Positions 54,001-64,000 of a stretch of DNA of 64,000 nt are shown here, one piece after another. Made by a program: the position numbers and the translations under genes. Source of the DNA: Candidatus Omnitrophota bacterium. Lineage in GTDB: Bacteria; Omnitrophota; Gorgyraeia; VGKH01; JBHPFN01. The stretch is taken from assembly GCA_042571725.1 (NCBI GenBank), contig JBHPFN010000005.1, positions 1,196-65,195 of the forward strand, in the 5' to 3' direction. Within the stretch, counting starts at the first letter, position 1. The number at the start of each line of letters is the position of its first letter. The notes beneath the pieces are model-generated. The model was given only the letters and a program-made list of their open reading frames with translations, was not told the origin of the DNA and did no database searches.

Positions 54001-57000
54001 AAAAATCGGACATGAATGTGGGGCCGATCTTGGGAAAATGGCATTTAGCACAAAACCGAAACTCCTTCTCTTCAGCAAGACCGCAGGCGCTGTTCGTGAC
54101 AAAGAAGAACGTCCCGAGACTGTATATGGGTTACGATTGATCATCAAGTTGATGTTTGAGCGCTTGGGATATGGCAACGATATTGACTTATCAGATGACA
54201 ATCAATGGCGTGAACGCAGACAATCATATACCGATTTTATCGCCAACTGTTCTGATAAGGATATTAATGAGGCAGCAGGAGCTGCTTTTGAGCACTTCTA
54301 CGCTGAGCTCCCATCTTTTGATTTAGTTGAACTGCCAGAAGAATTTATTGATCATTATCGTACTTCTTCAGATTATTCAAGCGGCAGTGCAGCCTGCTTT
54401 ATGGGCTTTGGTTTTGACATTCCTTTTGCATCGATCTTTGTGCTAGGCAGCGCATTACTCGAATGGTTATGGCCGGGTTCTGGAGTAGGAGTAGTTGCAT
54501 TTGCTATGGTACCCCCGCCGCCAGGCGGGGGCGAGAAAAAAGATCCGGCTTCTTTGGATGAATTAGACGTGGCTCGATTTGCGATTGCTGATCGGCGTAT
54601 GCGAGAGTTCCTGGCAGAAAATGGAACAACTGCTACTGCAGATTCACTCGAGAGAGAGTTCTGGCAATGGCATGCAATTCTTATGGGGTATGAAGAACCA
54701 AGACCGATTCGATACCGTGACGAAGAAACTCAGCGGGAGATGAGGGAGCTCTTTAGTTTTATTGCAGAAAGCGTTGATCTACCTGCACAAACGTTAATCG
54801 CAGCTATGATGAATAACAGAGTCGTAGAGATTCATCCTTTTGAAGAAGGAGGGAATCATAGACTTGCTTTATTGCTGGGCAATTTCGTATTGTTACGTGC
54901 GGGTAAGACACCGTTACCTGTATTTATGGGTCCCGCAGGAGAAATCTATGGAAGGTTTACCCGTCGTGCAACCATACAAAAGGCAGCTCCGTTTGCGTGG
55001 CTAGATACTGTTCGCCTTATGAAAGCTGTTGATGATCACGGACTCAATCCTCAGGAGCCAGGAGAAGATGATAGCGCTCAGACCAGCGATGAGGGAGAAG
55101 CTGATTCTGGCTCTAGCGGCGAAGCGGCTTTCTTTGCCGGGTCTTCTGGAGTTCCTGCGCAAGGATTGATCGACAGCATCAAGACATTGCTTGCTTCTAT
55201 CCAGGCTAAGCATCATGAGTATTTAAGCCAGGAGTTTACCAGGGATTATCCTTTTGTGTGTGAGCGCTCCTCAATCGTACTTGCCAAAGTCCTCTCTGAG
55301 CTCTTTGGTATACCGATAGGCGCAGACAACGGTAATCCGGCAATGATAGAAGTTATATTGGGAGTTAAGCGTGATCAATTTGAGGTAAATGATAGAGATA
55401 GACAAATTCCACGGCAGAACTGGGTAAAGCTTACCCTTACAAACGGAGAACAGTGGTATATCGACGGCCTGCTTAAACTTTTCTATCCTGAAATTGGAGA
55501 TTCAATTGTAGTCATGCCTTATGACGAGGCGTTAGCGAAATACGACTTAGCTGAGGTTAGCAGGGATTTCTTTATTGAGCAGATCGGAAAGACGCCTCCT
55601 GCCTATCATGATCTTTTTGGTCTCGTATTACGAGGAGAAGAAGGCCGATCAGAACAAGCAGATTTGTTAGAATTACCTCTTGGTCAAAGAATGCTCGAGC
55701 TAAGAGGATTAATGGCAATGCATGTAAGGGTGCGCAGAGACCCTCACACGTATTTCTCAAGAAGGCCGGAGGCAGAAGGGATGCAGCGGGTAGTTAGAAA
55801 GTTATTGGATCATATAGCTTCGAGTGAAGGTGGCAGCGTCTCTTGCTTTACGGGCTTGGCAGTTGGTGGTTATTCACCGGTGATTCTTGCTTTATTGGTG
55901 GTTATGGCATTCATATTTGTTGATCAGATTGTTATGCAGCTTAAGCGATTCGAGCGGTGGGAGAAGATTCAAGCGTTTGTCGTGGTTGCATATATTGTTG
56001 CGTTTTTTGCGTTCTTATCGTGGCTAGCAGGTTTGGGATCACAAGAAGATCCCATCCCTGCAGCAAAATGGCTGGTCGAGCTCAACAACGCTCAAGGCGC
56101 TGAATGGATTCCATTAACCCTGGCTATGGCGGTGCCGCCGATACGCAGTAGAGCCAGAGCCATTGATTGGATGTTGGATGTGATGAGGATCGGGGAAATA
56201 AATGGCCAACCAGTGATTATTTTATGGAAGTACAGAAATATCTTCCATTGGGTTAAATTTTATGGAAGGCCTGCAAATGCTCCGAAACAAAGCACTCTTC
56301 GAGCGGCCCATGAATTGATACAAGATATTACTTCTGCGCTACCTTATAATTTTGGAGTTTACGTTGAAAGATCTTCAGCTGGGCCATCTTCTGGCGGTCG
56401 TTATATCACCGCACTAGGCATTACCAGAACCGATTATAGTGACCTTCAAGAGCTTTATGAAGAAATCAGAGGGTATCTGCAGACGCGCATGCAAGAAGAG
56501 TCGCGCGCGCTCAGCAATGCTCCTAGACAGGTTGGTGATTCCATTGGAATGGCTATGTGGCAGATTTATTCAGCCTTGTATGGGAGGCGGTATTCTCTGA
56601 TTTTTGAAGACTATCTTTTGCAAGCACGCGTGCGTTCGGACGGATCACTTTTTCAGCGCAGACAAAGAAGGATGGAACTTGATTTTATGAGGCGAATTTT
56701 CTTTATTGAAAGGTGTGCGCGACCGCACTCGCAATACTTTGTATTTTCTGCTTGGGTAACACAATTGACACGAGAGGAGTTTAGAAGGTTAACCCAATTG
56801 CCCGCTCTGCAGAAAAGAATCACGAGGGTCTTCCAAGCGGATGTGCAACAAGCCGAATCAGAAATTAGTGGTGAATTGGAATATTTGCGAAGAGTAAGGC
56901 CAAAAGGCCCTCGATCTGGTGGGGGTCCTGGCGTTGGCGGCGGTGCGATGGTTTCTCTGTGGTGGTTGCTTACCGTATTTTCAGGATTGTTCTCCGGCGG

Positions 57001-60000
57001 GATGGTATTAGGCGTGGCTGCAGATGCTGAAAGCGAAATGGGAGATCTTGCTATTGAGATTTCTCCTAAGATTGCGAATCCAAAAGTGCGTCAAGACCTC
57101 GAGGCGCTGATCATTCAACATAAAGGTATACTCTCAACTCTTGCCCCTGCTGTATACATCGAAACGGGCAAGGGCGAGCCTGAAATCGCGCTGAGCCGCG
57201 ATAGAACACAGCTGACGCTTTTACTTCCTGTAAGAAAAACGAGGGATATGAAATGGCTTGAGCGGGAGAAGATCATTGAAGGCTTGGTTGCCAAAATGAA
57301 TGCCTATCTGGAAAGTCCGGAAGCCGGCCTTATTACCATTGTTCCGATACGCCATGAAATTGCGGAGCATTTTACAGAGGTAGAGCCTTACATGGAGGAA
57401 CGATTAGAGAAAGCCAAGGTTAAAGGTCGAAGGCTCGGCATTATCGAAGAGCTGGGTGGCTGGATGAGTTTGCCTAAATTCAAACAGCACCATGAAACAA
57501 TGCGGCGCCTTGCCAGTGATTTCCCTTCACCGCAAGACCTTTTGTTTGACCCCGCTCATGAAGGTGTGTGGATTACGTTTTGGGAAGGCGTCAAGGAACA
57601 CGGGCAAGATTTGAAGAGACGGCTGGAGCAAGCTATTGCCGGTGGGCACGTTTCTGAGATTGAGACGTTAATTAGGCCTGGTTTTTTTGGCTGTGCCTTC
57701 AAGAGTTGGCTGGCCCGACATCGGTTGGTCCCTGTTTTGTCTGAAGTTCCTTATCCGGATGTTGAGCAACTCAACAAACAACATGATTGGTTAAAAGATG
57801 AACCCTGGGGAAGAGGGCCTTTTGCAATCAGCGGAGGACCCCGTGAATTCAATGAGGCGGCTTTGGCTATACTTGAGCAACGCTATTTCTTGGGAGAGGT
57901 TAAAGAAGCAAAGCAGATGGTCATTCGTAACCGTCGTAAGGAGCAACTTCTTGAAACACTACCGCTGAATCCTGATGTGGAATATTTGTTTATCGTGGGA
58001 GGCGGTCACGTAAGGGGCATTCGAAAACCTTTCCCAATTTGTGTCGCTTTCACGATGGAGTCGCCCGAAGGCTTGAAAAGATTGCCAGTTCTGGAATGGC
58101 GCACCGGCGGCCCCTATGAGGCGGAGCGGAAGATTACAGAGTCGTTGCAAGCATTGATCGAAGAGGAACACTCAGAAGCACTTGAAGATCCACAATATGG
58201 CTCTGAGGGCATTAATCAATTGATCAATGCTGAGGTTGCAATGACAGATGAGTGGCGTCGGTCGCTTGACCACATGATCTTTTCTATGTTTTTTGCTTCT
58301 CTGAGGCTTCAAGACAGTGAAGCTACAGGTCTTGACTGGACGCCGGATGATCAAGGCAGAGCGATTAAAATTATACACGCTGCCACCGATGATTTGCCAG
58401 ACGATGAGTTTAGACAATTAATCATAGGGTTAATGCAAGTAAAACCAGATGTGCACCACGCATTTCGAGAGCGCTGTCAGGCGGTGCTTAATGATGAGGA
58501 CAATACTTTTGTGCAAGGGCTCTTCCTTCCTTCGAGAAATAAGAGAGATGGTGGTTCCGGCTCTAGCGCAGGCGCTGCCAACTTTATAGGCTTAGGGCTT
58601 GATATTCCTTTTGAATCTATCTTTTCACTTGTCAGCGCATTGTTCGAGTGGTTGTGGTCGGGTGTTGGCTCAGTTGCTCTTGCGATGGTGCCGCCGGGTC
58701 AGATTTCGGGGAGTGGAGAGAATCGAGGCGTCGATCTCTATAACCGGGATGGACTGACGCAGCTGGCGCGTGAAATCGTCACCCAAGCTATTCGCGAAAC
58801 AGGGGTGGAGGATTATGACATCCGTCTCTTTGGAAGTGCGGTATGGGGAGTTCCGCCCTTTGAAGATATCGATCTCTTCATCGATGGTCCTGGAGGAGAA
58901 ACTGGTGTACTACGTTTGCGAGAGCATTTGATATCTCTCGCTGCGCAACGAGGTGTGAAGGTGGACGTTACAGCAAGAAGGGTTTTTGAAAAGGGTTTCG
59001 ATCCTGATTTCGGCGTAAGGCCGGAATCTAACTGGTCCTCGATACTCAACGTACCTAGGATTCGCAAAGAAGGCCTCATTGTGTGCTTAAAAGCGACAAA
59101 AGACCCGGACATTTCTCTAGATAAAAGGAACAATGATACAGCGGGGGATGAGGGAGATCATAATCTCGGCCCAGGCGGAGGCGCGGCACACTTTATAGGC
59201 TTTCGATTTGAAATTCTTTTTGCATCATTCGTCCTCCGCTGGGCAATGATTGCGGTAATACTTCTATTATTACTCGGCGCGCCGCCGAAAGCTACAGCCA
59301 ATGTGCCTGAAGATCACAAGACGCAGGAGCTTCCTAGAGAGCTTGTTGCAGAAGCCGCAAAGTACGAGTATCAATGGGCCACACCGGAGATGGAGGCGCT
59401 GCTTGATGGTATTGTAGCCTTAGCAGAATTTTATGGAGAAGATTGGGATTCAGGAAAGGTATTCCCTGTGCCTATTCAATTAGATGTAGACCTAAAAGTG
59501 GCTGCGGTAATCATGGCATCCCGCGCTGAACAAGAATCCACCGCTATCCCTCAGACCACACTTACCGATACAACAACCTTCACCTACCACAATGAAACAG
59601 TAGCTCAAGAGGCAATAGAGCAAGAAGCGTCAGAACAGGAAGTGTCAGAATCACAGTCATTCATGTATAGATGGCGTCACATTTTGCGCGGTCTTGGGGC
59701 TGTTGTCGTAGTATTGTTAGCTCTTTCAATACGCAGGAAGAAGGCGCAGGCAGCAGGAATGATTGTAGCTGGACTTGTTCTGTTCGGCGAAGTTTCTTCT
59801 GCCTATGCTGAAGTTCTTGGAAACGAAGACATGAGAGCTATGCGCGCAGATCCTTTTGGGGACTTATTTGGTCTCTTAATCTTTATAGCATGGATACTTT
59901 TAATAAAGAAATTCATTGCATCGTCAGCCAGCAACTCTGATGCTCAAGCTTCGAGAAATAGGGATGTATGGGATCAAGATAGAGCAATACGCGAGTATAC

Positions 60001-63000
60001 TCAATCAATGCGAGGATCATTCGAAGAAGTCAGTAATAAAATGGTAGAATCAGGCCGCTGGTACGACGAAAGACTCTATGAGTTAGATTTTCTATTTCAG
60101 TTAGTTACCGCTTCCTATGGGCTTGAAAGGATAGAGAAGAAGCGCGGACCGACGATTTGCTGTGCGGTTATTGTTCAATTACGACGCGAGTTTTTAGGGA
60201 GTGATTTCAGAACTTTATTCCTTAATGAATTACGCGGAAAGTCTCTTCCCGAAAGGATTGATACGCTCGCTGTCTATATTACTTCAGGAACATTCGATGA
60301 GTCAGATCTTGAAGAAGCGGTGCGTAGGGCTATCCCTGATGGCTCTGAAGAAGATAGGCGAGAAGGAATATATAGAGCTGCCTCGATATATGTCACACTC
60401 TTTTCACGTTACGTTGGTGAGGCAGAGCTTAATGGAGAACCGCCACCCGAGGAAAATCATGACCAGGCCAGCCACTTTACCTTGTTTGGGTTGGGGATGT
60501 TTGAAATAACAGAGATAGCCGTGGTGGTAGGGGCGATAGTAGGATTCTTATTTATGCGAGGCCGAAGAAGCCTGGATGATCCTAGGACCGATTGGTTAAT
60601 ACAGCACTATTCCACAAAAGCAAAAAGTTTATTGAAAGAGGTCACCGATACCCTCATGGCATTAGATCAAAAATGGGAAGTTGAAAAGCTCGAAGAATTA
60701 GAGGCATTGTTTACATATCTGTACTTAACCTACTTTCTTCAAGATGTGGAAGAAGAACACGGCCAGGAGATTAGCGCGGGTGTTATCGAATGCCTTACAG
60801 ACAGCTATAGTCGCGGCTGGGGGCTCGCAGGCGGTTTTGGTGATCTCTTCGAAGAAATAAGAGGAAAGTCACTTGATGAAAGGGTTGCAAAGCTTACTGA
60901 ACATATCCTTACGGCACGATATCCAGTAGGACTACAGAATGTTTTAAGAATAGTTATAGCGCGGCAAGGGGGACTTCAAAGGGTAACGAGGTTATTCAGA
61001 GAATGTTTTCCTCATATCAGAGTCGATGCTTCCACTCCTGAAGATGAGTCTGTTTCTCCTGGTTCGGGAGAGGTCAGCCACTTTACCTCGTTAGGGCTTG
61101 GTGGGTTTGAGATATCAGCAGCCTTCCGCCAAAAAGCAGCCAGGATTTCTCTGGCGTTTATAGGGATTATTATTCTGACAAGCTTCTTCGTCACTGGTAA
61201 GAATCCGAAAGAATTTGAGCACGTTCGAGAGAAGAACAGGATTGTCTTTACGATTACCGAACCTGGCCTGTCTCGCGATGGCATGATGTTTATTACACAA
61301 GAGGTTGAAAACGATATTGCTGATAACAGCCACATCCCAGTAAAAGCTATTAACTCAACTACCCACGCAGGCCGGGCAATAGTTGTTGCCAAGGTCAGAG
61401 ATGATGAGACAAGGGCAACCATTGCGCAATTTATTAATGAGCGCCGCGCTTTTATTGATGATGAGTTGGATTTATCCGATCAGGCGAGAAGAACCATTAC
61501 GCAAGAGACTTTTAGGATGCCTATCGCAACCATTCTTTTAACCGGCTTTGAAGATTATTCAGACCTGCAGCATGCAGGAGAGGCTCTTAGAAAAGAGCTC
61601 AAGGCCTCCCCGAGTACAAAAGACGTAAAAACAACGAGCCTTACACGTCCAGAGATTGAAGTGGGGGTTAGACCTACCTATGTGCGCCTGTTTGGTAACG
61701 TGGTTGAGACGGCAAGGTCAGCAAAGGGTATAAGTTTCTCGACCATTTTAGAAAGAAAATCTGACGAGATACCTCTTGCAACTAAAGATAGACGTTTCAA
61801 TCTTGATGCCCTAAGAGGCCTGCCTATCGGCACCGGTACATTAGAAGATATGGCTGATGTCGAAGAGGTATTTGATAACAGGGCGACCACGGTAGATATC
61901 GACGGACAGCGCGCGGTTAAATTGATTATCGAGAAAGCCGATGGATATGATCTAGAAGAGTCAATGCAAGAGATAAAAGCACTCATTGCACAATTTGAGC
62001 AAAAGAATCCTGAGGCAGAGATTATATTCACTCAGGATAGCTCACAAGCACCGCTTAAGATGCTTAAGGAGTTCTTGCGTGCCTTCTTTGTGGGCGCAAT
62101 AGTAATTCTGGTGCTTCTCTATTTCGTCTTCAGAAATAAAAGAGATACCTCACTTGTAGAGTTGGGCGTAGTGGCACCGATTGCGGTAACCTTAATTGCA
62201 CTGTACTATTTAGGCATTCCTATTAGTGTAATCAGTCTTACCGGCCTCATTTTAGTGTTGGGTATGGTAGTTGATGACAGCCTGGTGATCGCCGAAAGCC
62301 GCCGACGGTTCTTAGAGCAAAGGTTTTCGCCTTTTAAGGCCACGGTAATGGCTGTAAAAGAAATGGGCATACCGGTTACGTTCTCGAGTCTGACCACGGT
62401 TGTATTTATGGCACCGCTTCTGCTTGAAACCAGCTATATGCAAAGCAACTTCCAGACTCTTGCAACGGTGGTAAGCGTAACACTTTTAAGTTCTCTGGTA
62501 TTCGCGCTTACGCTTATACCAATGATTTATGCCAGCGCGCCTGAAGGCAAGGGTAAGTCCTCTCCGAAGCCATCCGTTGCTATGGAAAGGCTAGGCACGG
62601 GCTACGCAAGACTGATTACACGACTTTCTCGATTCAGATGGTTAATCGTTCCGGTGGGCATTGTTGGTTGTTTCGCGCTAATCATCGCCGGTTTTGTAAA
62701 ACAACCGTTTCAATTCATTCATCAAGAGGAGATTAGCTACTTTAAGATTAATCTTACCGCGCACGATACGAATATCAACGATGAAGAGATGGCCAGATTC
62801 GCACTGGCTGCAAAGGAATATGTTCCACAGGAACACGTGAATGTTATCTTTACAGAGATAGGAGATGAAAATAATGCATCGAATACCGCCACTGTCTTCG
62901 TTAAAATCGAGGACGGCTTTCGCCGCAACGGCAGAGAGATCAAACAAGAAACACAAGCTGCTATTGCTCAGGCGCAAAGAAGCAGCCTTAGGTTACATGA

Positions 63001-64000
63001 TGTGGAAATAAGCTTTGAAGAAAGCGCGCTTGGTGAGCAAGGACGTTCTATAGAGGTGGGTTTCTTTGGCAAGACCACAGAGGGCCTTCAGCAGGGTGTT
63101 GCTAAAGATTTTACCGATTTTGCAGCAAACATCCCCGAAGTTGAAAGCGTTACCTCTAATTTTGATCAGGGACGACCGACATTGACCATTGACATAGATG
63201 AAAAGAAAGCAAATCACTTTCATCTTGATGAGGCTGAGGTAAGAAGGCAGTTGTTTGCCTTTAGAGAGGGTGTAAAGGTATTCGACTTCCATGAAGGTGC
63301 TGAAAAAATCGGCGTCCGGGTTATTGGTGGCAAGGACATTAGAAATAATATTGAGGTAATAAGATCGTTCACCGTTCCCAATAAAGAGGGCGAAAGCATA
63401 CCGCTGGAAAGTTTTGCCAGCATCACCAGGGATTGGCAGCATACCTCAGAGTTGCGTCAAGACAGAAACTACGCGGTAACCTTCCAGATTATTCCTGAGC
63501 CACAGGCAGACCACCGTGCTATTCAAGATGCCATCAATACGTGGTGGCAGGATAACCAACAGCAGTTTCCCGGCGCTCACCAGATGCGCTTTGGAGAAGC
63601 AGAGCGCGAAGAGTCTGAGTCTATGAACAAGCTGGGAGTTAATTATTTCTGGGCGCTGTTGGTCGCCTGGTTTATGATATTGGTTCCTCTCGGGGGGCGG
63701 ATATCGCAGACCTTTGTGGTATTAGGCAGTATTCTTTTTGCACCTGCAGGTATTTTTGCGGTTGCGCTTTTGACCGACTCCGGTTTTGAAATCGCCTCGA
63801 TAATCGTTATGGTTGTTCTTCCGGGATTGGTGATTAATATTGGTTTGATGTTATTACATGCCTACAACAGGTTGCGAGAACAAGGGTTTAATGAGTCTGA
63901 TGCCATCGAACAGGCCTGTAAATTACGCTTACGGCCGATTCTTTTGACGTCTGTGACTACCATTGTGACATTAGTGATATTGGATGTATTTACCACTGGG
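2..64000 (+). CDS. Single uninterrupted giant ORF in frame +2, truncated by both window edges (21,333 codons in window); mosaic multi-domain, multi-pass membrane protein, possibly a polyprotein
   Basis: Codon-by-codon reading of frame +2 (codons start at 2,5,8...) found no TAA/TAG/TGA. All recognised domains fall in this one frame; phase was checked at 11369 (GH13 DFVGNH), 54833 (Fic HPF) and 62213 (RND). The ORF track has no frame +2 entry and the other five frames are <=257 aa. Confidence 0.9.
1121..1231 (+). other. Inter-domain junction cassette J01
   Basis: DSGTGEA-ACFTGFGMFGAEFVSVVKSIASMVGSLVSAPIVLGVA-VDGSEG. Confidence 0.6.
1400..2700 (+). other. GHMP-kinase-like domain (HddA/fucokinase-like subgroup)
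   Basis: ISPMALAGGMESSNAF (GHMP motif II-like), LTGGQGHLSSTVGGAY, and C-terminal MPLGAGGPGANLIAIS (motif III-like). Confidence 0.65.
3362..4330 (+). other. HAD-superfamily phosphatase-like domain (Cof/IIB-like)
   Basis: VILSDIDGTFL (motif I DxDGT), VDLITGNW (motif II Thr), SIDINRDVISKW (motif III Lys), FGNEF...GDTAVL (motif IV-like). Confidence 0.55.
4490..4582 (+). other. Junction cassette J02
   Basis: EGAGNETP-SMFTGLNIFSGIDILKLLGQLFSLPLVLGVA-SSGG. Confidence 0.65.
5222..6800 (+). other. Carboxyltransferase domain of the pyruvate carboxylase subunit B / oxaloacetate decarboxylase alpha type (HMGL-like barrel plus conserved C-terminal region)
   Basis: DTTVRDGEQS, EIWGGAT, GIDTFRIFDAFDDNRN, LVIKDAGGVLTP, LYLHTHDTRGN, GLPGGMKTNF, LVTPTSQWVGDQAFKNV, all in canonical order. 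Confidence 0.8.
7484..7564 (+). other. Junction cassette J03
   Basis: ESSDPETP-SMFTAINIFGMGLGIVAVIAGAIDFFF. Confidence 0.65.
8015..8137 (+). other. Possible sigma-70 region 4 / LuxR-type helix-turn-helix
   Basis: ARIISMNLTGQQDQEIADYLGYPWKHVVYFYQNIRIHLREL resembles the l.l.g.s..EIA..lg.s..tV......r..Lr pattern; weak. Confidence 0.3.
8291..8365 (+). other. Junction cassette J04
   Basis: APEAAA-SMFTGFPLFDISIVLSALAALFIFT. Confidence 0.65.
8393..8412. repeat. Perfect 20-nt palindrome CCTGCCTGCCGGCAGGCAGG, copy A
   Basis: Self-complementary over all 20 nt; translated PACRQAG (first C in codon position 1). Confidence 0.95.
8479..8630 (+). repeat. Structured nucleotide element, copy A: inverted repeat enclosing the 22-nt motif, plus a downstream GCAGCGGCCC box
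   Basis: GGGGTCGCTGCGGCC (8479-8493) pairs with GGCCGCAGCACCCC (8560-8573): 14 bp and one bulge. The loop holds ACCTCT-CCGTGGCTGGTGGGG (8526-8546). GCAGCGGCCC lies at 8621-8630. Confidence 0.75.
8960..9040 (+). other. Junction-like cassette J05 (inside the membrane region)
   Basis: HPADPA-SMFGAFNLMSVVLVAASLGTMIPIAI. Confidence 0.5.
10823..10915 (+). other. Junction cassette J06
   Basis: GSGGKGDV-SLFTLFGFFLPFTSILTLLTAHLLPFVLGVS-QSTDQS. Confidence 0.6.
11024..12465 (+). other. Glycoside hydrolase family 13 (alpha-amylase superfamily) catalytic domain
   Basis: Four GH13 signature regions in order: IIDFVGNHTA (I), GVDGVRCDLV (II), FTFIAEHY (III), FPGNHDD (IV); preceded by WVYLMGIMP. Confidence 0.8.
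12563..12823 (+). other. Junction cassette J07 (contains structured element B; ends in a signal-peptide-like AEA site)
   Basis: EGASSEA-SMFVLPDFLGVSSLY...TMAAAALLFTPGIAEA-NELDQ. Confidence 0.6.
12617..12794 (+). repeat. Structured nucleotide element, copy B (most complete)
   Basis: GGGCCGCTGTGGCA (12617-12630) pairs with TGCCACAGCGGCCC (12688-12701), 14/14 bp. The loop holds ACCTCTTCCGTGGCTGGTGGGG (12655-12676). A second motif copy (12713-12775) is split by a 41-nt expanded imperfect palindrome (12725-12765). GCAGCGGCCC lies at 12785-12794. Confidence 0.8.
13427..13880 (+). other. HD-domain metal-dependent phosphohydrolase (HD-GYP-like order, GYP motif not seen)
   Basis: LRHCL...AFFLHDLGK...QEHPHKT...YLIEHHEE...FSLIDTLDSLRDCRRPH. 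Confidence 0.6.
15611..15667 (+). other. Internal signal-peptide-like segment with an AxA site
   Basis: KVFGVVMLATLLFATPAIA followed by DDATT: basic n-region, hydrophobic core, TPAIA c-region. Confidence 0.55.
15794..16072 (+). repeat. Paralogous module P1 (unknown function), copy 1 of 2
   Basis: GMPRFISAVELLVEMKHAGRFEVLTKLRVF...HTRLSNAIAAIEED aligns with copy 2. Confidence 0.6.
16127..16192 (+). other. Junction cassette J08
   Basis: GSKGSP-ANFLMPFIVIVSSLLFVTPVFA-ETG. Confidence 0.6.
16200..16790 (+). other. Polytopic membrane region (about 5-6 helices)
   Basis: FWLSVLTWTGMLTASTILLAILMGIA, MWSGLWFLGFWALIIL, WCIALPFFTVIAGGGIVFLIAAGTCVFIGFAFMIVASLPCSLTVIM, LIPIFLIIGNGIFVLALRIFV. Confidence 0.6.
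16799..17125 (+). repeat. Paralogous module P2, copy 2 of 2
   Basis: GAPRFVHEAEILAKFRHPGRFDVLPKLRTV...HTRLSRAIATIEAD aligns with 15794-16072. Confidence 0.6.
17492..18570 (+). other. Medium-chain (zinc-type) alcohol/threonine dehydrogenase-like (MDR) domain
   Basis: SIGICASD, VPLGHEAGGIVVGVG, GKYVALE, Rossmann GIIVGLGPQGRMMLYMAQLMG, ILDACGATG. Confidence 0.7.
18782..18826 (+). other. Junction cassette J09 (short)
   Basis: LLGAIS-TFTSLFGFGMPLGVA-ADAGG. Confidence 0.5.
19211..19312 (+). other. Junction cassette J10
   Basis: ADAAEGEV-ANFVSIGFGSMLPLGKIFGLIAFLLLALTPIAQA-DSLPENN. Confidence 0.6.
20171..20635 (+). other. Junction cassette J11 (extended; contains structured element C)
   Basis: KG-APHFILAKK...VAISLLTLGITGLLYKLGLLW...IVAAALYSFLIPLIGTFLTAIG...FSFLTPGLVLGVS-AGNDIS. 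Confidence 0.5.
20288..20480 (+). repeat. Structured nucleotide element, copy C
   Basis: GGGCTGCTGTGGT (20288-20300) pairs with ACCACAGCAGCCC (20366-20378), 13/13 bp. The loop holds ACCTCTTCCGTGGCTGGTGGGG (20330-20351). A second motif copy (20412-20453) is split by the perfect 20-nt palindrome (20424-20443). GCAGCGGCCC lies at 20471-20480. Confidence 0.8.
20720..21495 (+). repeat. Three roughly 110-aa repeats sharing a W..LL..N.HGK.I motif
   Basis: RPEWKRLLDRNPHGKEIVAGIL (about 20720-20810), VPWHILLEENLQHGKSITVQII (about 21055-21160), ISWEELLEHNPHGKRIISEII (about 21400-21495). Confidence 0.45.
21701..22113 (+). other. Three consecutive Fis-type (HTH_8-like) helix-turn-helix motifs
   Basis: AWDVSKTAQGLGMDRKTLRNRLARFGF (21701-21781), LEMAGWNARAAAESLSITRDDLREKLRKLGI (21842-21946), YRWKIRPSAGALRMGRVRLREILTEVYGY (22007-22113). 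All resemble the sigma-54 activator C-terminal HTH pattern GN...AA..LGisR.tL.rKl.k.g. Confidence 0.55.
22196..23030 (+). other. Calcineurin-like metallophosphoesterase (PPP Ser/Thr phosphatase-like)
   Basis: IILVGDLHT (GDxH), LVILGDAVN (GDxx[DN]), YVLGNHD (GNH[DE]), VATHGGP, VVAHSP. Confidence 0.7.
23114..23197 (+). other. Junction cassette J12
   Basis: GSVTPSA-SMFTAFDIGIAALLFGIASGAASVIKYL-SQRKLRAYIKKR. Confidence 0.65.
23450..24240 (+). other. Radical-SAM-like module
   Basis: VAVTEGCSVQCDYCSA gives a CX3CX2C cluster at 23486-23509; the rest of the barrel was not confidently recognised. Confidence 0.4.
24335..24373 (+). other. Junction cassette J13 (short, no long hydrophobic arm)
   Basis: PKPSAEA-SMFSAAGIGMVPP. 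Confidence 0.5.
24380..24860 (+). other. Transglutaminase-like / papain-fold cysteine protease-like domain, paralog 1 (Cys-His-Asp intact)
   Basis: GPCKISSVALIKILSKKFNLPVAG (Cys 24470-24472), WWHVWVTLIV (His 24617-24619), LFIDGA, VMPYDEAL. Order matches the G.C..fa.l...l.R..GiPaR / HaW.ev / D pattern. Confidence 0.45.
25094..25195 (+). other. Junction cassette J14
   Basis: DTSQADA-AMFTAGGFGMETVLSSLQSLLSGALNMFVLGIST-SESREQGDGD. Confidence 0.6.
25245..27660 (+). other. Four tandem GNAT-like acetyltransferase-fold modules
   Basis: Copies at about 25245-25745, 25811-26350, 26441-26975 and 27131-27660. Each has a beta-rich core then ...R(R)xL(L/I)xxxxxxA/TR...FxxV/I, ending in GF and a (Y/I)V/L..K strand. 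Examples: VVILYRDPRQHNLAGYVFYSF...RRRIIKTLLTVAMETAG...GLGFAPV versus AVMLYRHPGESTLGGFIFFVH...ERNLIIAALLTKAMETAR...RFGFGQG. Confidence 0.5.
29402..29479 (+). other. Junction cassette J15 (no F-T-G signature; LGAA end)
   Basis: LPFGKTIIPFIVTVLSGGISMPLGAA-VEGGESD. Confidence 0.5.
29446..29474 (+). repeat. 29-nt perfect direct repeat, left copy
   Basis: TTCCGGCGGCATAAGTATGCCGCTTGGGG, encodes SGGISMPLG of junction J15. Confidence 0.9.
29558..30960 (+). other. B12-binding-domain radical SAM enzyme (class B-like)
   Basis: N-terminal Rossmann-like NVVLVGLADE...KPAILGIAARINTF...LIVLGNALPT...LGLGEGE. Core YFEQSRGCPRAACTFCAS (Cys cluster 30131-30157, spacing CX4CX2C), ISLGVESFSEGQLKRYNKG, GFIPLDP. Confidence 0.75.
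31641..32335 (+). other. PfkB/ribokinase-family carbohydrate kinase domain
   Basis: IFVFGGSIPENLP, IFVVVDFS, DVIKPNLYEFEMV, AAIVTLGSYGALVY, LIGAGDAFCAGIVYEL (GAGDAF about 32176-32195). Confidence 0.7.
32402..32500 (+). other. Junction cassette J16
   Basis: TTASGET-SSFTSVGIGLFEIVEIVVRWLSSGGISMPLGVA-HGSSG. Confidence 0.6.
32467..32495 (+). repeat. 29-nt perfect direct repeat, right copy
   Basis: Identical 29-mer 3,021 nt (1,007 codons) downstream in the same phase; encodes SGGISMPLG of junction J16. Confidence 0.9.
33150..34120 (+). other. Proline dehydrogenase (PutA-type TIM barrel) domain
   Basis: LDIVGDAA, FIRIDLEEY, VVVQLYLKDS, IPVRPVKGAYEKPE, KESTDAHYELM, AVASQNPRS, IQMLLGMFD, AYLPAGK...YVGRRLEE. 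Confidence 0.7.
34307..34357 (+). other. Junction cassette J17
   Basis: ELETAAV-SMFVSGFGFPFMTLGVT-IDAGDD. Confidence 0.6.
35000..35092 (+). other. Junction cassette J18
   Basis: DEPSAEM-SMFVSLGLGEIALIIAGGAFLISFFAGIGPV-TLEKTRRAAR. Confidence 0.65.
35530..36440 (+). other. PLP-dependent fold-type II (Trp-synthase-beta/threonine dehydratase-like) module
   Basis: VNSHKAWAV (compare tgSfKdRga), FVAASRGVLAEAIITLAHLVGARARIYMP (compare aSsGNhg.a.A..a...G....i.mP), ITTCDVGAYIQGLILG. Confidence 0.45.
36611..36960 (+). other. Response-regulator receiver (REC) domain
   Basis: MNILVVEDDKKAREYL...IDAIVSDYEYPDG...RIILWSS; starts at an in-frame Met exactly where free-standing receivers start. Confidence 0.75.
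37121..37162 (+). other. Junction cassette J19 (short)
   Basis: ADSESEIG-CFTSGAGVALTSML-SREKRHE. Confidence 0.5.
37178..37700 (+). other. Low-molecular-weight protein tyrosine phosphatase / ArsC-like domain, copy 1
   Basis: EICVVCNSNIFRS: CX5R(S) P-loop at 37196-37219; ...ADSMLVATHS...LYLITEFL. Confidence 0.65.
37778..37813 (+). other. Junction-like LGVS element J20
   Basis: LLSGFGMVLGVS-IAAQEE. Confidence 0.4.
37920..38530 (+). other. M48-like zinc metalloprotease module
   Basis: LFASHEIGHLAF (HExxH at 38102-38116) plus downstream GMEFNADEAGLRIM (E..AD..g third-ligand region). Confidence 0.55.
38600..38680 (+). other. Junction cassette J21
   Basis: RIDSSDA-SFFTSFGGFDLIGNIATMFSGFVLGVA-EAAEG. 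Confidence 0.65.
38700..39190 (+). other. Low-molecular-weight protein tyrosine phosphatase-like domain, copy 2
   Basis: IRTVCRQGLFRS: CX5R(S) P-loop at 38720-38743; ...ADIILVATQN...MHLITEFL; paralogous to 37178-37700. Confidence 0.65.
39230..39680 (+). other. Membrane region (about 4 helices)
   Basis: WPVVITFAFAIMLLIAWFI, MMTGGLYILTYIGWRLAGY, LFWVGLFWVFMIHHIL, WINFVLHSVSAGLMYNVM. Confidence 0.55.
39797..40290 (+). other. Transglutaminase-like / papain-fold domain, paralog 2 (nucleophile position is Ser)
   Basis: ISRQSSIALAEVLSKAFGLPIIG (Ser 39875-39877 where the Cys sits in paralog 1), PHAWLAVV (His 40034-40036), LYIDAT, VLPYDEAL. Confidence 0.45.
40499..40615 (+). other. Junction cassette J22
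   Basis: NNAPKGDA-AFFLGLPTLLFGIESLGELLNSVDLAPIGLAFAPFWKWW-GKGRKE. Confidence 0.55.
40781..41365 (+). repeat. Two roughly 80-aa HEAT/armadillo-like helical repeats
   Basis: EKLVELLVKNLDLRGEKISK...EQKTAARILLALRLHLSKNLWTQIVIPMADRLDVW (40781-41032) versus EGLVVLLSEELEFGEKIAKN...ERDTAAIILSALRLHLSEHLWEEVVMPTAHSLGVW (41132-41365). Confidence 0.6.
42170..42769 (+). repeat. Tandem duplication with an exact 300-nt (100-codon) period
   Basis: KATAIQEIREALGATIEALDRLGS...YARHASVLSPAQEEFLKHIITLLLGSTMPAEIAKEIRDQL starts at 42170. KAAAIREIRETLYAAEEILRGLGS...YQRHVSVLSPEQREFLEQVITLLLSLTMPDEIIRYIRDHL starts at 42470. A diverged third copy lies at about 44050-44290. Confidence 0.75.
43361..43760 (+). repeat. 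Large helical repeat core L1 (paralog of 45347-45750)
   Basis: EAIWAVEDELSYLNRCLRVFRQ...GKRILEKIQMEDDGYHDLSSSLRDYVVEAFYSLGRALCGDFTWF...GELDNLEKAYEYF. Confidence 0.7.
43790..44050 (+). other. Pro/Ala/Glu/Gly-rich low-complexity linker
   Basis: DDEPPADPTPTPPSGPAPGSFLGVGGGAASAALDDLLEEEGSAPHQEDAGPAASAGEVQEDTGPAATPTGEVPATSTEADPAGEA. Confidence 0.7.
45347..45750 (+). repeat. Large helical repeat core L2 (paralog of 43361-43760)
   Basis: EDRWAVEDALGYLKRNLDMFRS...GQTILERITKADGSYHNLPSSRRFRGDVVEALFDLGRALCGDFESF...EELNNLSKAKQYF. Confidence 0.7.
46439..46582 (+). other. Junction cassette J23 (ends in palindrome copy D)
   Basis: GSDSGSGD-TYFAIFFAVMLGDILMRWLLPEADSKAATVVLGTTLAFIPPPCLPAGR. Confidence 0.5.
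46563..46582. repeat. Perfect 20-nt palindrome CCTGCCTGCCGGCAGGCAGG, copy D (solo)
   Basis: Identical 20-mer; translated in a different phase (PCLPAGR) from copy A. Confidence 0.95.
47282..47332 (+). other. Junction cassette J24
   Basis: NSGIGGGAG-AVVFVALALGELLKWIF. Confidence 0.45.
47480..48700 (+). other. Basic cluster followed by a long coiled-coil-like region
   Basis: KLKKRRKPRKTKRKAKEK, then E/K/R/Q/L/A-rich sequence with two related segments (REKFLAEFTGAWEAAPTVTDKWHVLNNVP versus LREFWGDFDLTWQAAESLTERFQLLDNVP). Confidence 0.4.
50100..50650 (+). other. Putative zincin-like metallopeptidase module
   Basis: FTNAILHERYHALHVG (HExxH at 50303-50317) with Glu residues about 25 aa downstream (IFIEAITEF); the rest of the fold was not recognised. 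Confidence 0.35.
51227..51346 (+). other. Junction cassette J25 (EWLWPG subtype)
   Basis: GDGSSSAET-AHFIGLAPGISFVSVLALGALALEWLWPGAGIGSVAFAAP. Confidence 0.65.
51377..51507 (+). repeat. Five copies of a roughly 14-nt GC-rich motif at about 29-nt spacing
   Basis: GGTACTGCACCC (51377), GGTGCTGCACTGCC (51408), GGTGCTGCACTGAC (51437), GGTGCAGTACTGCC (51465), AGTGCTGCGGTGCC (51494). Spacings are 31/29/28/29 nt, so copies fall in different codon phases. 51378-51387 and 51466-51475 are reverse complements. Confidence 0.6.
52967..53083 (+). other. Junction cassette J26 (EWLWPG subtype)
   Basis: SGAIGEA-ACFTGVEFGLLLDPILELGSAMVEWLWPGTGLLTLVPPG. Confidence 0.65.
53200..54380 (+). other. Unknown module containing a second HExxH motif
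   Basis: KDALYHEIAHQALFDVEKKEE (HExxH at 53906-53920). Confidence 0.3.
54389..54529 (+). other. Junction cassette J27 (EWLWPG subtype)
   Basis: SDYSSGS-AACFMGFGFDIPFASIFVLGSALLEWLWPGSGVGVVAFAMVPPPPGG. Confidence 0.65.
54560..55010 (+). other. Fic/DOC-family-like domain with a degenerate active-site motif
   Basis: RVVEIHPFEEGGNHRLALLLGNFVLL (54833-54862) versus canonical HPFx[DE]GNGRxxR; the Gly-Asn-Gly-Arg core reads Gly-Gly-Asn-His-Arg. Confidence 0.5.
55124..55165 (+). other. Degenerate junction signature J28 (no hydrophobic arm)
   Basis: EADSGSSGE-AAFFAGSSGVPAQG. Confidence 0.4.
55200..55690 (+). other. Transglutaminase-like / papain-fold domain, paralog 3 (His position is Asn)
   Basis: FVCERSSIVLAKVLSELFGIPIG (Cys 55259-55261), RQNWVKLTL (Asn 55418-55420 at the His position), WYIDGL, VMPYDEAL. 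Confidence 0.45.
55841..55921 (+). other. Junction cassette J29
   Basis: SSEGGSV-SCFTGLAVGGYSPVILALLVVMAFIFV. Confidence 0.6.
56945..57019 (+). other. Junction cassette J30 (LGVA end; weak signature)
   Basis: GGGPGVGGG-AMVSLWWLLTVFSGLFSGGMVLGVA-ADAESE. Confidence 0.5.
58577..58699 (+). other. Junction cassette J31 (EWLWPG subtype)
   Basis: GGSGSSAGA-ANFIGLGLDIPFESIFSLVSALFEWLWSGVGSVALAMVPPG. Confidence 0.65.
58720..59130 (+). other. Minimal nucleotidyltransferase (Pol-beta-like NTase fold) domain
   Basis: DIRLFGSAVWGVPPFEDIDLFIDG (G-S ... D-x-D signature, about 58826-58885). Confidence 0.55.
59186..59299 (+). other. Junction cassette J32
   Basis: LGPGGGA-AHFIGFRFEILFASFVLRWAMIAVILLLLLGAPPKATA-NVPED. 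Confidence 0.6.
60053..60469 (+). repeat. Paralogous module Q1 (unknown function), ends in an SHFT junction
   Basis: GRWYDERLYELDFLFQLVTASYGLERIEKKRGPTICCAVIVQL...LRGKSLPERIDTLAVYI. Confidence 0.55.
60470..60556 (+). other. Junction cassette J33
   Basis: EENHDQA-SHFTLFGLGMFEITEIAVVVGAIVGFLFM-RGRRS. Confidence 0.65.
60667..61075 (+). repeat. Paralogous module Q2, ends in an SHFT junction
   Basis: QKWEVEKLEELEALFTYLYLTYFLQDVEEEHGQEISAGVIECL...IRGKSLDERVAKLTEHI aligns with Q1. Confidence 0.55.
61076..61198 (+). other. Junction cassette J34 (its helix doubles as TM1 of the RND module)
   Basis: SPGSGEV-SHFTSLGLGGFEISAAFRQKAARISLAFIGIIILTSFFVTG. Confidence 0.6.
61130..64000 (+). other. AcrB/HAE-type RND transporter module embedded in the giant ORF (runs off the right edge)
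   Basis: TM1 ISLAFIGIIILTSFFV, then periplasmic loop 1, then the TM2-6 bundle with LTGLILVLGMVVDDSLVIAE and GIPVTFSSLTTVVFMAPLL...SLVFALTLIPMIYA. Then TM7 WLIVPVGIVGCFALIIAGF, periplasmic loop 2, and the TM8+ bundle with ...LRLRPILLTSVTTIVTLV. Confidence 0.85.

What the first reader, a model, noticed from the sequence alone, without database searches (positions are those of the whole stretch)
61076..64000. A complete-looking AcrB-type RND transporter module is embedded in the giant ORF
After junction J34 the sequence follows the RND layout. TM1 is followed by a large periplasmic loop, then a TM bundle with the conserved GMVVDDSLV and SSLTTVVFMAPL motifs. Then come TM7, a second large loop and a second TM bundle, which runs off the window. 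RND pumps normally work as free-standing homotrimers of about 1,000 aa. One tethered at its N-terminus, and possibly its C-terminus, to a chain of more than 20,000 aa could not trimerise conventionally unless it is excised. The junction helix doubles as RND TM1, so cassette and module are physically integrated.
Basis: partly seen in the sequence, partly recalled or inferred. Interest (0 to 1): 0.65.

Follow-up and report, generated by a model that had tools for sequence, protein, structure and literature searches.

The report
RND pump module inside giant ORF
The last 2.9 kb of this window really do encode an almost complete AcrB-type membrane pump that is fused in-frame to the end of an uninterrupted reading frame of more than 21,000 codons, an unusual setting for a protein that is normally a free-standing gene, although the pump copy is heavily diverged and has no visible partner proteins.

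Summary
Confirmed. Frame +2 of the window (nt 2-64000) is a single open frame of 21,333 codons with no stop. Its last 975 codons (nt 61076-64000) are a collinear RND permease module: Pfam PF00873 E=2e-84, AlphaFold pLDDT 83.5, TM-score about 0.85 to AcrB. TM1-TM11, both periplasmic loops and all porter and docking subdomains are present. TM12 lies beyond the window.

The module begins seamlessly at a recurrent junction motif of the giant ORF and has no in-frame start codon of its own. The TM4 Asp-Asp pair and the TM11 Arg and Thr are kept. The TM10 Lys is Asn, as in all its nearest free-standing homologues.

The module is an outlier. It is at most 24-27% identical to anything in 5.8 billion clusters and scores 284 bits, against 655-907 for its nearest relatives. 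It keeps only 52% of the family's near-invariant residues (AcrB keeps 78%), and the conserved residues of the trimer-contact loop are lost. No MFP or OMF partner is detectable in the 61 kb upstream.

The architecture matches the multi-enzyme, TM-rich giant ORFs described for Omnitrophota, but lineage and 3' extension could not be established. The claim that tethering precludes trimerisation is not supported.

The parts
2..64000 (+). Giant open reading frame: 21,333 codons, open at both ends of the window. It carries many unrelated enzyme modules and about 62 hydrophobic segments.
   Evidence: There are 0 stops in this frame against 658-1,656 in the other frames. Pfam domains are listed. The hydrophobic-segment scan is.
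59972..60454 (+). Helical cassette copy 1 (aa 19991-20151), a paralogue of copy 2.
   Evidence: Self-BLAST and HMM give 28-30% identity. No homologues were found among 1.84 billion representatives except two spurious repeat-protein hits.
60455..60583 (+). Junction element before cassette 2: NHDQASHFTLFGLGMFEIT, then a hydrophobic helix, then RGRR.
   Evidence: The junction HMM gives E=1.2e-13. The KD hydrophobicity peak is 2.08.
60584..61075 (+). Helical cassette copy 2 (aa 20195-20358), ending in an acidic Ser/Gly/Pro-rich linker.
   Evidence: AlphaFold2 gives pLDDT 77.6 with seven helices. Foldseek finds no PDB match with E<1. Pfam and NCBIfam find nothing.
61076..61117 (+). Junction motif SHFTSLGLGGFEIS. 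Its tail overlaps the first residues of the RND module.
   Evidence: The junction HMM gives E=1.1e-11. The alignment to AcrB and to the N-termini of 12 homologues is. No in-frame start codon lies nearby.
61130..61201 (+). RND TM1, preceded by the basic stretch RQKAAR on the cytoplasmic side.
   Evidence: This is helix 10-33 of the AlphaFold2 model. It aligns to AcrB residues 8-30.
61202..62047 (+). Periplasmic loop 1, comprising the PN1, PN2 and DN subdomains. The eroded inter-subunit loop lies at nt 61730-61795.
   Evidence: The loop is collinear with AcrB residues 33-329. DN has 76 residues against 92 in AcrB and 86 in P0001. Loop residues are compared. pLDDT is below 50 at model residues 210-231.
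62048..62536 (+). TM2-TM6 bundle. The TM4 motif GMVVDDSLV holds the Asp-Asp pair at nt 62273-62278.
   Evidence: D407=D20758 and D408=D20759; N415 is replaced by Ser. Identity to P0001 is 30.2% here.
62537..62701 (+). Cytoplasmic I-alpha helix and TM7.
   Evidence: These are helices 492-510 and 512-533 of the model.
62702..63595 (+). Periplasmic loop 2, comprising the PC1, PC2 and DC subdomains.
   Evidence: The loop is collinear with AcrB residues 567-868. DC has 89 residues, the same as AcrB.
63596..64000 (+). TM8-TM11. TM10 carries Asn-Ile (nt 63836-63841) in place of AcrB's Lys940-Asn941. TM11 keeps Arg (nt 63926-63928) and Thr (nt 63947-63949). The module is cut by the window end before TM12.
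   Evidence: Alignments are, coordinates. The N-half and C-half TM repeat is detectable at E=1.9e-7.

Best explanation
An AcrB/HAE-type RND permease gene has been captured as one module of a giant, multi-module, membrane-anchored ORF. The fusion is seamless and in-frame at the permease's N-terminus.

Shown:
- The module is translated, if at all, only as part of the giant frame. It has no start codon of its own.
- It keeps the full RND architecture: TM1-11, two periplasmic loops with all six subdomains, and the internal N/C repeat.
- It keeps the proton-coupling core: the TM4 Asp-Asp pair and the TM11 Arg and Thr. The TM10 Asn is typical of its subfamily.

Inferred:
- The module inserts with its N-terminus in the cytoplasm, so the two helical cassettes upstream of it are cytoplasmic.
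- It still couples proton flux in the TM bundle to movements of the periplasmic porter domain.
- It does not work as a canonical tripartite AcrAB-TolC-like pump. This inference rests on four findings: it has lost about half of the family's near-invariant residues, including the trimer-loop residues and the TM8/TM9 prolines; DN carries two module-specific deletions; no adaptor or outer-membrane partner is encoded upstream; and it evolves as a sequence singleton.

The most likely role is an inner-membrane exporter or translocation engine. It would act either tethered to the giant polypeptide or after release at the junction, under constraints different from those on free-standing pumps.
For: - The frame is open for 21,333 codons.
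- PF00873 gives E=2.3e-84. The module is collinear with AcrB through every subdomain, with few indels.
- AlphaFold2 gives pLDDT 83.5 and TM-score about 0.85 to AcrB.
- D407, D408, R971 and T978 are conserved. K940 is Asn, and 11 of the 12 nearest free-standing homologues aligned also have Asn there (one has Ser).
- The N/C internal repeat is detected at E=1.9e-7, comparable to 6e-9 for AcrB.
- TM-bundle identity to P0001 (30% and 28%) equals or exceeds the AcrB-P0001 values.
- Codon usage lies within 1 sd of other 975-codon stretches of the ORF.
- The junction motif upstream is the same element that recurs about 23 times in the ORF. It is conserved at the peptide level despite synonymous divergence: 18 of 34 identical residues use different codons, and nucleotide differences by codon position are 11/12/27.
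- Divergence is marked. The module scores 284 bits against 655-907 for its nearest homologues and 1,466 for AcrB. It keeps 26 of 50 near-invariant columns, against at least 78% for every family member and 78% for AcrB as outgroup.
- No MFP or OMF was found, whereas the best free-standing homologue P0001 has an MFP gene 14 nt upstream.
Against: - No orthologue exists in any collection, so purifying selection on the module itself could not be measured.
- The high AlphaFold confidence partly reflects the homologue alignment rather than the query.
- Loss of the conserved Gly and Pro residues, of the TM4 Asn (N415 to S) and of the residue after the TM10 Asn (Ile instead of D/N/S) could mean the engine no longer works.
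- TM12 and the C-terminus are unseen.
- Nothing here shows that the ORF is expressed.
Confidence: 0.5

Rival explanations
1. Non-transporting relic. The RND fold is retained only as a large membrane anchor or scaffold for the giant protein, and proton coupling and substrate transport are lost.
For: - Only 52% of near-invariant family residues are kept, against 78% for AcrB and at least 78% for every family member.
- The Pfam score is less than half that of the nearest homologues, and all NCBIfam subfamily cut-offs are missed by a wide margin.
- The trimer-loop consensus and the TM8/TM9 prolines are lost.
- N415 is Ser, and TM10 reads N-I instead of N-[DNS].
- No partner genes were found.
Against: - The 975 codons carry no stop or frameshift and almost no indels relative to homologues.
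- The charged TM4 and TM11 residues, which a mere anchor would have no reason to keep, are retained.
- The TM bundles are as similar to P0001 as AcrB is.
- The whole periplasmic domain (about 580 aa) is retained and confidently modelled.
Confidence: 0.3
2. Polyprotein. The giant ORF is cut at the recurrent junction elements, for example before the conserved Phe. This would release a free-standing RND of about 1,000 aa that trimerises and works conventionally with partners encoded elsewhere.
For: - About 23 junction elements share the pattern small-x-F-[TIV]-G/S-[FL]. Each is preceded by an acidic Ser/Gly/Pro-rich linker, and they separate the Pfam-recognisable modules.
- The junction peptide is under purifying selection.
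- The RND N-terminus starts about 10 residues after the motif's Phe.
- The literature on Omnitrophota giant proteins proposes post-translational cleavage (10.1101/2023.11.21.568195).
- The two paralogous cassettes would lie on opposite sides of the membrane if the helix between them were a normal single-span TM in an uncleaved chain (inference).
Against: - No peptidase domain was found in the window.
- The residues flanking the conserved Phe vary: M/H/C/N/L/S before it and T/I/V/M/S/G after it.
- The motif matches no known cleavage or sorting signal that I could test. Gly at -1 of class III signal peptides is absent.
- The hydrophobic junctions are equally well explained as membrane anchors or re-entrant hairpins.
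- The eroded trimer loop argues against a conventional trimer even if the module is released.
Confidence: 0.25
3. Artefact. A free-standing RND gene appears fused because of a mis-assembly, a sequencing error that removed a stop codon, or a chimeric join.
For: No second copy of this sequence exists in any collection searched, so the join is not independently confirmed.
Against: - The module is in the same frame as 61 kb of stop-free upstream sequence.
- No in-frame ATG, GTG or TTG lies near the RND N-terminus.
- The sequence immediately upstream is the ORF's own recurrent junction motif, most similar to the junction 202 codons earlier.
- There is no compositional or codon-usage break.
Confidence: 0.05

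Closest known systems
AcrB/MexB/MdtB-type RND permeases (Pfam PF00873, HAE-1-like)
   Same: The topology and all subdomains are shared (TM1-11, PN1, PN2, DN, PC1, PC2, DC). The predicted fold has TM-score about 0.85 to AcrB. The TM4 Asp-Asp pair, the TM11 Arg and Thr, and the internal N/C repeat are present.
   Different: Identity to AcrB is 17%. The TM10 Lys is replaced by Asn, the inter-subunit loop is 6 residues shorter, and DN is 16 residues shorter. The module is not a free-standing gene, and no adjacent acrA-like or tolC-like partner is present.
Free-standing RND permeases of the subfamily nearest to NCBIfam NF033617 (for example P0001, P0003, P0010; Nitrospinota, Firmicutes and Acidobacteriota MAGs)
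   Same: These are the best sequence matches (E down to 4e-58). They share the TM10 Asn in place of Lys, the same length of the inter-subunit loop, and the TM4 VVDD motif.
   Different: Identity is only 22-27%. These proteins are 1,015-1,070 aa with their own start codons. P0001 has an MFP gene 14 nt upstream. They score 655-907 bits on PF00873 against 284, and they keep at least 78% of near-invariant residues against 52%.
Giant multi-enzyme, TM-rich ORFs of Omnitrophota (West-Roberts et al. 2023, bioRxiv 10.1101/2023.11.21.568195; Nielsen & Lui 2026, bioRxiv 10.64898/2026.06.07.730766; Seymour et al. 2023, PMC10066038)
   Same: The ORF is uninterrupted for more than 20,000 codons. Many unrelated Pfam families tile one polypeptide. 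There is roughly one hydrophobic helix per 340-370 residues. Sequence conservation is poor and large stretches are unannotated.
   Different: The lineage of this window could not be determined. The flanks (T2SS/T4P genes), the SecA-like domains and the C39/S8 peptidase domains reported for those giants are not visible here. An RND/PF00873 module is not mentioned in the text of these papers.
Engineered covalently linked AcrB trimer (Nikaido laboratory, as summarised in PMC3925222)
   Same: RND protomers are tethered through both cytoplasmic termini to more polypeptide, and the construct is reported as fully functional.
   Different: That construct links three RND copies with short linkers. Here a single visible copy is tethered to more than 20,000 unrelated residues, and its trimer loop is eroded.

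Membership tests
RND permease, Pfam PF00873 (AcrB/AcrD/AcrF) | Score above the Pfam gathering threshold over most of the model | tested here: met
   The module scores 284 bits against a cut-off of 28, E=2.3e-84, covering profile positions 254-976 of 1021. NCBIfam alignment extends coverage to positions 59-965 of 1009.
RND permease, Pfam PF00873 (AcrB/AcrD/AcrF) | 12-TM topology with large periplasmic loops between TM1/2 and TM7/8 | tested here: inconclusive
   TM1-TM11 and both loops are present and collinear with AcrB. TM12 lies beyond the window end.
RND permease, Pfam PF00873 (AcrB/AcrD/AcrF) | RND fold | tested here: met
   The AlphaFold2 model has pLDDT 83.5 and pTM 0.79. Foldseek matches AcrB chains at E about 4e-48 with TMq 0.84-0.86.
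RND permease, Pfam PF00873 (AcrB/AcrD/AcrF) | Internal duplication (N-half homologous to C-half) | tested here: met
   phmmer of the N-half against the C-half gives E=1.9e-7 over TM2-5 versus TM8-11. AcrB as control gives 6e-9.
RND permease, Pfam PF00873 (AcrB/AcrD/AcrF) | TM4 Asp-Asp pair (AcrB D407/D408) | tested here: met
   D20758 and D20759 lie in GMVVDDSLV.
RND permease, Pfam PF00873 (AcrB/AcrD/AcrF) | TM10 Lys (AcrB K940) | tested here: not met
   The residue is N21279. Of the 12 nearest free-standing homologues, 11 also have Asn and one has Ser, so this is a subfamily trait and not decay. The next residue is Ile instead of D/N/S.
RND permease, Pfam PF00873 (AcrB/AcrD/AcrF) | TM11 Arg and Thr (AcrB R971, T978) | tested here: met
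   R21309 and T21316 lie in RLRPILLTSVTT.
RND permease, Pfam PF00873 (AcrB/AcrD/AcrF) | Homotrimer held by the DN inter-subunit loop (AcrB 211-227) | tested here: inconclusive
   The loop is present with the subfamily's length (11 aa). The conserved N-x-N-x-P-x-G and R-T residues are lost, DN carries two extra deletions, and pLDDT is below 50. Oligomeric state cannot be computed here.
RND permease, Pfam PF00873 (AcrB/AcrD/AcrF) | Free-standing gene of about 1,000 codons with its own start | tested here: not met
   No stop codon occurs in the 61 kb upstream. No in-frame ATG, GTG or TTG lies between nt 61040 and 61160.
Tripartite RND efflux system (RND + MFP + OMF) | Adjacent membrane-fusion-protein and/or outer-membrane-factor genes | tested here: not met
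   - Pfam finds no HlyD/MFP or OEP family in any part of the ORF.
- Pfam at E<=5 and NCBIfam at E<=1 find none in the 5,300 aa upstream.
- phmmer with AcrA and with the P0001-linked MFP against the whole ORF gives no hit at E<=100.
- The cassette fold is all-helical and orphan.
- The downstream flank is not available.
NCBIfam RND subfamilies (NF033617, NF000282, TIGR00915 and others) | Score above the curated subfamily cut-off | tested here: not met
   The best score is 257 bits against a cut-off of 1,250.
Omnitrophota-type giant multi-enzyme ORF | Uninterrupted ORF of at least 10,000 codons with many TM helices and many distinct Pfam families | tested here: met
   The frame has at least 21,333 codons and 62 hydrophobic segments. 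At least 15 Pfam families are present, including Pro_dh, Radical_SAM, B12-binding, PfkB, PALP, ADH, Metallophos, HD, alpha-amylase and ACR_tran.
Omnitrophota-type giant multi-enzyme ORF | Omnitrophota genome with flanking T2SS/T4P genes | not testable with these tools
   The window holds no sequence outside the ORF. No identical or related contig was found. No rRNA or tRNA is present.
Omnitrophota-type giant multi-enzyme ORF | SecA DEAD-like and/or C39/S8 peptidase domains | tested here: inconclusive
   None was found in these 21,333 residues at E<=0.001. The ORF is open at both ends.
Class III (prepilin-type) signal peptide, considered for the junction motif | Gly at -1 and Phe/Met at +1, followed by a hydrophobic helix with Glu at +5 | tested here: not met
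   Position -1 is M/H/C/N/L/S and never Gly. The acidic residue sits at a variable position, +5 to +11.

The most novel reading that the evidence does not exclude
The giant ORF is a bacterial polyprotein or membrane-tethered assembly line. Its approximately 23 selected junction elements would be processing or membrane-insertion signals. The RND permease would then be made either as a released unit with a new N-terminus at the conserved Phe, or as a protomer that works while covalently tethered to more than 20,000 residues of enzymes. It could export their products or, SecDF-like, help translocate parts of the giant protein itself. Either outcome would be a mode of RND biogenesis and operation not described so far.
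Probability: 0.2. Interest if true: 0.85.

Novelty: new variant of a known kind. Interest (0 to 1): 0.5.

Why it matters
RND permeases have strict requirements: N-in/C-in topology with 12 TM helices, and usually a trimer docking to periplasmic and outer-membrane partners. Finding one as an internal or terminal module of a polypeptide of more than 21,000 aa gives a built-in reporter for the main open question about bacterial giant ORFs: are they cleaved into working units, or do they function as one membrane-tethered chain?

If the module is active, it shows that an RND engine can be produced and operate without being a free-standing gene. If it is a relic, it documents how captured genes decay inside giant ORFs. 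The recurrent junction element, which is under selection, is a concrete candidate for the unknown processing or anchoring signal.

Tried and rejected
- **3' extension.** The last 60 nt of the window were searched as an exact string in genome contigs, metagenome contigs and viral contigs. There were no matches, so the 'does the ORF continue past TM12' test could not be run.
- **Relatives of the module.** A homologue search with the RND module found only free-standing RNDs at 24-27% identity or less. The Pro_dh module found only hits at 28% identity. The module at aa 18187-18607 found nothing.
- **Cassette pair.** An exhaustive HMMER search of 1.84 billion representatives returned two hits (P0123, P0124). 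Both are tandem-repeat surface proteins whose scores come from 11-16 weak repeated stretches, and I rejected them as spurious.
- **Junction type B.** An alignment of the type B junction (LEWLWPG) was scanned in genome and metagenome contigs. The pattern matched, but no hit was confirmed by tblastn.
- **Internal expression signals.** Promoter-like and terminator-like sites around the module are no more frequent than in shuffled sequence, so an internal promoter or terminator was rejected. No in-frame start codon is present, so independent translation was rejected.
- **Other features.** Rfam and tRNA scans found nothing. Antisense ORFs over the module are short, at most 149 aa.
- **Recent transfer.** Recent horizontal insertion of the module is not supported by codon usage.
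- **Unavailable library.** The afdb50 fold library was not available.
- **Prepilin-type cleavage signal.** This reading of the junction was rejected because Gly at -1 is absent.
Full report
**Observation.**
The window is one open reading frame. Frame +2 (nt 2-64000) has no stop codon in 21,333 codons, while the other five frames carry 658-1,656 stops. The sequence contains no N. GC content (0.43-0.49) and a positive GC skew are uniform across the window.

The last 975 codons (nt 61076-64000) are an RND permease.
- Pfam PF00873 gives E=2.3e-84 and 284 bits.
- NCBIfam RND_permease_2 aligns over positions 59-965 of 1009.
- PDB sequence matches to MdtB, MexK and MexB reach E about 4e-31.

**Anatomy of the module.**
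I aligned the module with E. coli AcrB (taken from NC_000913) and with 12 of the best free-standing homologues. It is collinear with AcrB residues 1 to about 995 through TM1, PN1, PN2, DN, TM2-6, the I-alpha helix, TM7, PC1, PC2, DC and TM8-11, with very few indels.

An AlphaFold2 model built on 62 homologues has mean pLDDT 83.5 and pTM 0.79. It shows eleven TM helices and two beta-rich periplasmic domains. Foldseek places it on AcrB chains with TM-score 0.84-0.86. The N-half/C-half repeat typical of RND proteins is detectable at E=1.9e-7, against 6e-9 for AcrB. The window ends in the loop after TM11, so TM12 and the C-terminus (roughly 40-70 codons) are unseen.

**The proton relay.**
- AcrB D407 and D408 correspond to D20758 and D20759 (nt 62273-62278).
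- R971 corresponds to R21309 and T978 to T21316.
- K940 is N21279.

Of the 12 nearest free-standing homologues, 11 also carry Asn and one carries Ser at the K940 position (motif VVN[DNS]). The missing Lys is therefore a subfamily trait and not evidence of decay. Two differences are specific to this module: Ile instead of D/N/S at the next position, and Ser instead of the TM4 Asn (AcrB N415).

**How it is joined to the giant ORF.**
The 14 residues at nt 61076-61117 (SHFTSLGLGGFEIS) belong to a motif that recurs through the ORF. The pattern is small-x-F-[TIVM]-[GSA]-[FL], Gly-rich, followed by a hydrophobic or amphipathic stretch. It is usually preceded by an acidic Ser/Gly/Pro-rich linker. An HMM finds 20 strong and 3 weak copies.

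AcrB Met1 and the Met1 of the homologues align about 10-11 residues after the motif's Phe. The motif's tail (FEIS) overlaps the RND's first residues, and no separate junction helix precedes RND TM1. No in-frame ATG, GTG or TTG lies between nt 61040 and 61160. Promoter-like and terminator-like sites are not enriched. Codon usage of the module lies within one standard deviation of other stretches of the ORF. The fusion is therefore seamless and old, not a read-through accident.

Two junction copies that are 65% identical as peptides differ at 27 third positions against 11-12 first or second positions, and 18 of 34 identical residues use different codons. The junction peptide itself is therefore under selection.

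**What lies upstream.**
Immediately upstream are two paralogous helical cassettes of about 165 aa (28-30% identity), separated by another junction with a hydrophobic helix and an RGRR cluster.
- Cassette 2 models as a seven-helix domain with pLDDT 77.6.
- It has no PDB fold match.
- It has no Pfam or NCBIfam match.
- It has no true homologue among 1.84 billion representative proteins. The two hits returned are repeat-protein artefacts.

The rest of the ORF carries unrelated enzyme modules: alpha-amylase, PYC_OADA, HD, Zn-ADH, Fis-type HTH, metallophosphatase, B12-binding plus radical SAM, PfkB kinase, proline dehydrogenase and a PLP enzyme. About 5,000 residues have no Pfam match at all.

No membrane-fusion protein or outer-membrane factor is detectable anywhere in the ORF.
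- Pfam finds none.
- NCBIfam finds none.
- phmmer with AcrA and with the MFP that sits 14 nt upstream of the best free-standing homologue P0001 finds none at E<=100.

**How diverged the module is.**
The best match among 5.8 billion protein clusters is 24-27% identical, and all hits are free-standing proteins of about 1,000-1,350 aa.

| Protein | PF00873 score (bits) |
|---|---|
| This module | 284 |
| P0001 | 656 |
| P0003 | 655 |
| P0010 | 907 |
| AcrB | 1,466 |

At the 50 alignment columns that are at least 90% conserved in 62 homologues, the module keeps the consensus residue in 26 (52%). Every family member keeps at least 78% (median 98%), and AcrB, used as an outgroup, keeps 78%. Overall identity in the TM bundles is nevertheless as high as between AcrB and P0001.

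The losses include many Gly and Pro residues, both prolines of the TM8/TM9 motif, and the conserved residues of the DN inter-subunit loop. DN also has two module-specific deletions, and its loop is the only low-confidence part of the model. In AcrB, deleting residues 211-227 of this loop gives a folded but monomeric, inactive protein (PMC3925222).

**Interpretation.**
The module is a genuine RND permease domain, seamlessly integrated into a giant ORF. It keeps the fold and the charged core of the proton pathway but evolves under altered constraints.

I consider it most likely (about 0.5) that it is still a membrane-inserted, proton-coupled engine that no longer behaves as a canonical tripartite pump. 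A non-transporting relic or anchor (about 0.3) cannot be excluded without orthologues or experiments. Whether it is released at the junction (polyprotein reading, about 0.25) is open. The junction is selected and well placed, but no protease domain is present and no known cleavage signal matches. The junctions may equally be membrane anchors. An assembly artefact is unlikely (about 0.05).

Both termini are cytoplasmic, and a covalently linked AcrB trimer is reported as fully functional (PMC3925222). The eroded trimer loop is the better reason for doubt.

**Comparison with what is known.**
Giant ORFs that are rich in TM helices, poorly conserved and tiled with many unrelated enzyme domains have been described in Omnitrophota.
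- West-Roberts et al. 2023 propose cleavage into products.
- Seymour et al. 2023 report few annotated domains and poor conservation.

The present ORF fits that description: at least 21,333 codons, about one hydrophobic segment per 344 residues, and at least 15 Pfam families. None of these texts mentions RND, AcrB, efflux or PF00873.

I could not place the window taxonomically or find any related locus. Membership in that group therefore rests on architecture only. I rate the finding as a new variant of a known kind: a known transporter family in a setting known for other domains.

**Limits.**
- There is no 3' extension, no orthologue and no expression evidence.
- AlphaFold confidence leans on the homologue alignment.
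- The conservation test uses a family chosen by similarity to the query, with a single outgroup (AcrB).

Noticed in passing
window 2-64000 (+); junction elements start at nt 1103, 4475, 7469, 8273, 8942, 10805, 18794, 19196, 23099, 24317, 25079, 32387, 34298, 34982, 38594, 51209, 52952, 54377, 55823, 58559, 59168, 60455, 61061: A recurrent junction element occurs about 23 times (20 strong, 3 weak). It consists of an acidic Ser/Gly/Pro linker, then small-x-F-[TIVM]-[GSA]-[FL], Gly-rich, then a hydrophobic stretch. Two tail variants exist: one ends in P-[LI]-V-L-G-V-[AS] and the other in L-E-W-L-W-P-G. The element is conserved at peptide level despite synonymous divergence. It matches no known sorting or cleavage signal that I could test.
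   Followed up: partly
window 1-45000 (+): Housekeeping-type enzyme modules are fused into the same frame: alpha-amylase (aa ~3754), HD (aa 4475-4602), Zn-ADH (aa 5829-6091), Fis-type HTH_8 (aa ~7275), metallophosphatase (aa 7416-7627), B12-binding plus radical SAM (aa 9866-10217), PfkB kinase (aa 10571-10774), proline dehydrogenase (aa 11053-11369, E=5e-48) and a PLP enzyme (aa 11865-12102). The Pro_dh module is only 28% identical to its best database match.
   Followed up: partly
window 59972-61075 (+): Two paralogous seven-helix cassettes of about 165 aa lie directly before the RND. They have no sequence or structure relatives. If the single helix between them is a normal TM span in an uncleaved chain, the two paralogues would sit on opposite sides of the membrane. 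That paradox would be resolved by cleavage or by a re-entrant hairpin.
   Followed up: partly
window 45002-60001 (+): About 5,000 consecutive residues have no Pfam family at E<=0.001. The only signal is a faint Fic/DOC-like match around aa 18,194-18,306 (Pfam E=0.006; NCBIfam 'mobile mystery protein B' E=0.009).
   Followed up: no
window ~8600-9430, ~15600-16700, ~19200-20460 (+): There are three clusters of 5-8 closely spaced hydrophobic helices (aa 2868-3142, 5200-5567, 6406-6820) with no Pfam match. They may be further polytopic membrane modules in the same ORF.
   Followed up: no
window aa 8108-8249, 13262-13484, 18372-18608 (nt ~24320, ~39790, ~55110): A domain of about 140-220 aa is present in three diverged copies (30-38% identity) scattered over 30 kb of the ORF. 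Several other old internal duplications exist, for example aa 8814-8992 against 9044-9220 at 39% identity.
   Followed up: no
L002 4872-9123: The closest free-standing RND homologue (P0001, JGI metagenome) sits in a standard MFP-RND operon, with the adaptor gene ending 14 nt before the permease start. The Nitrospinota homologue P0003 (L003, L004) has no adjacent adaptor.
   Followed up: yes
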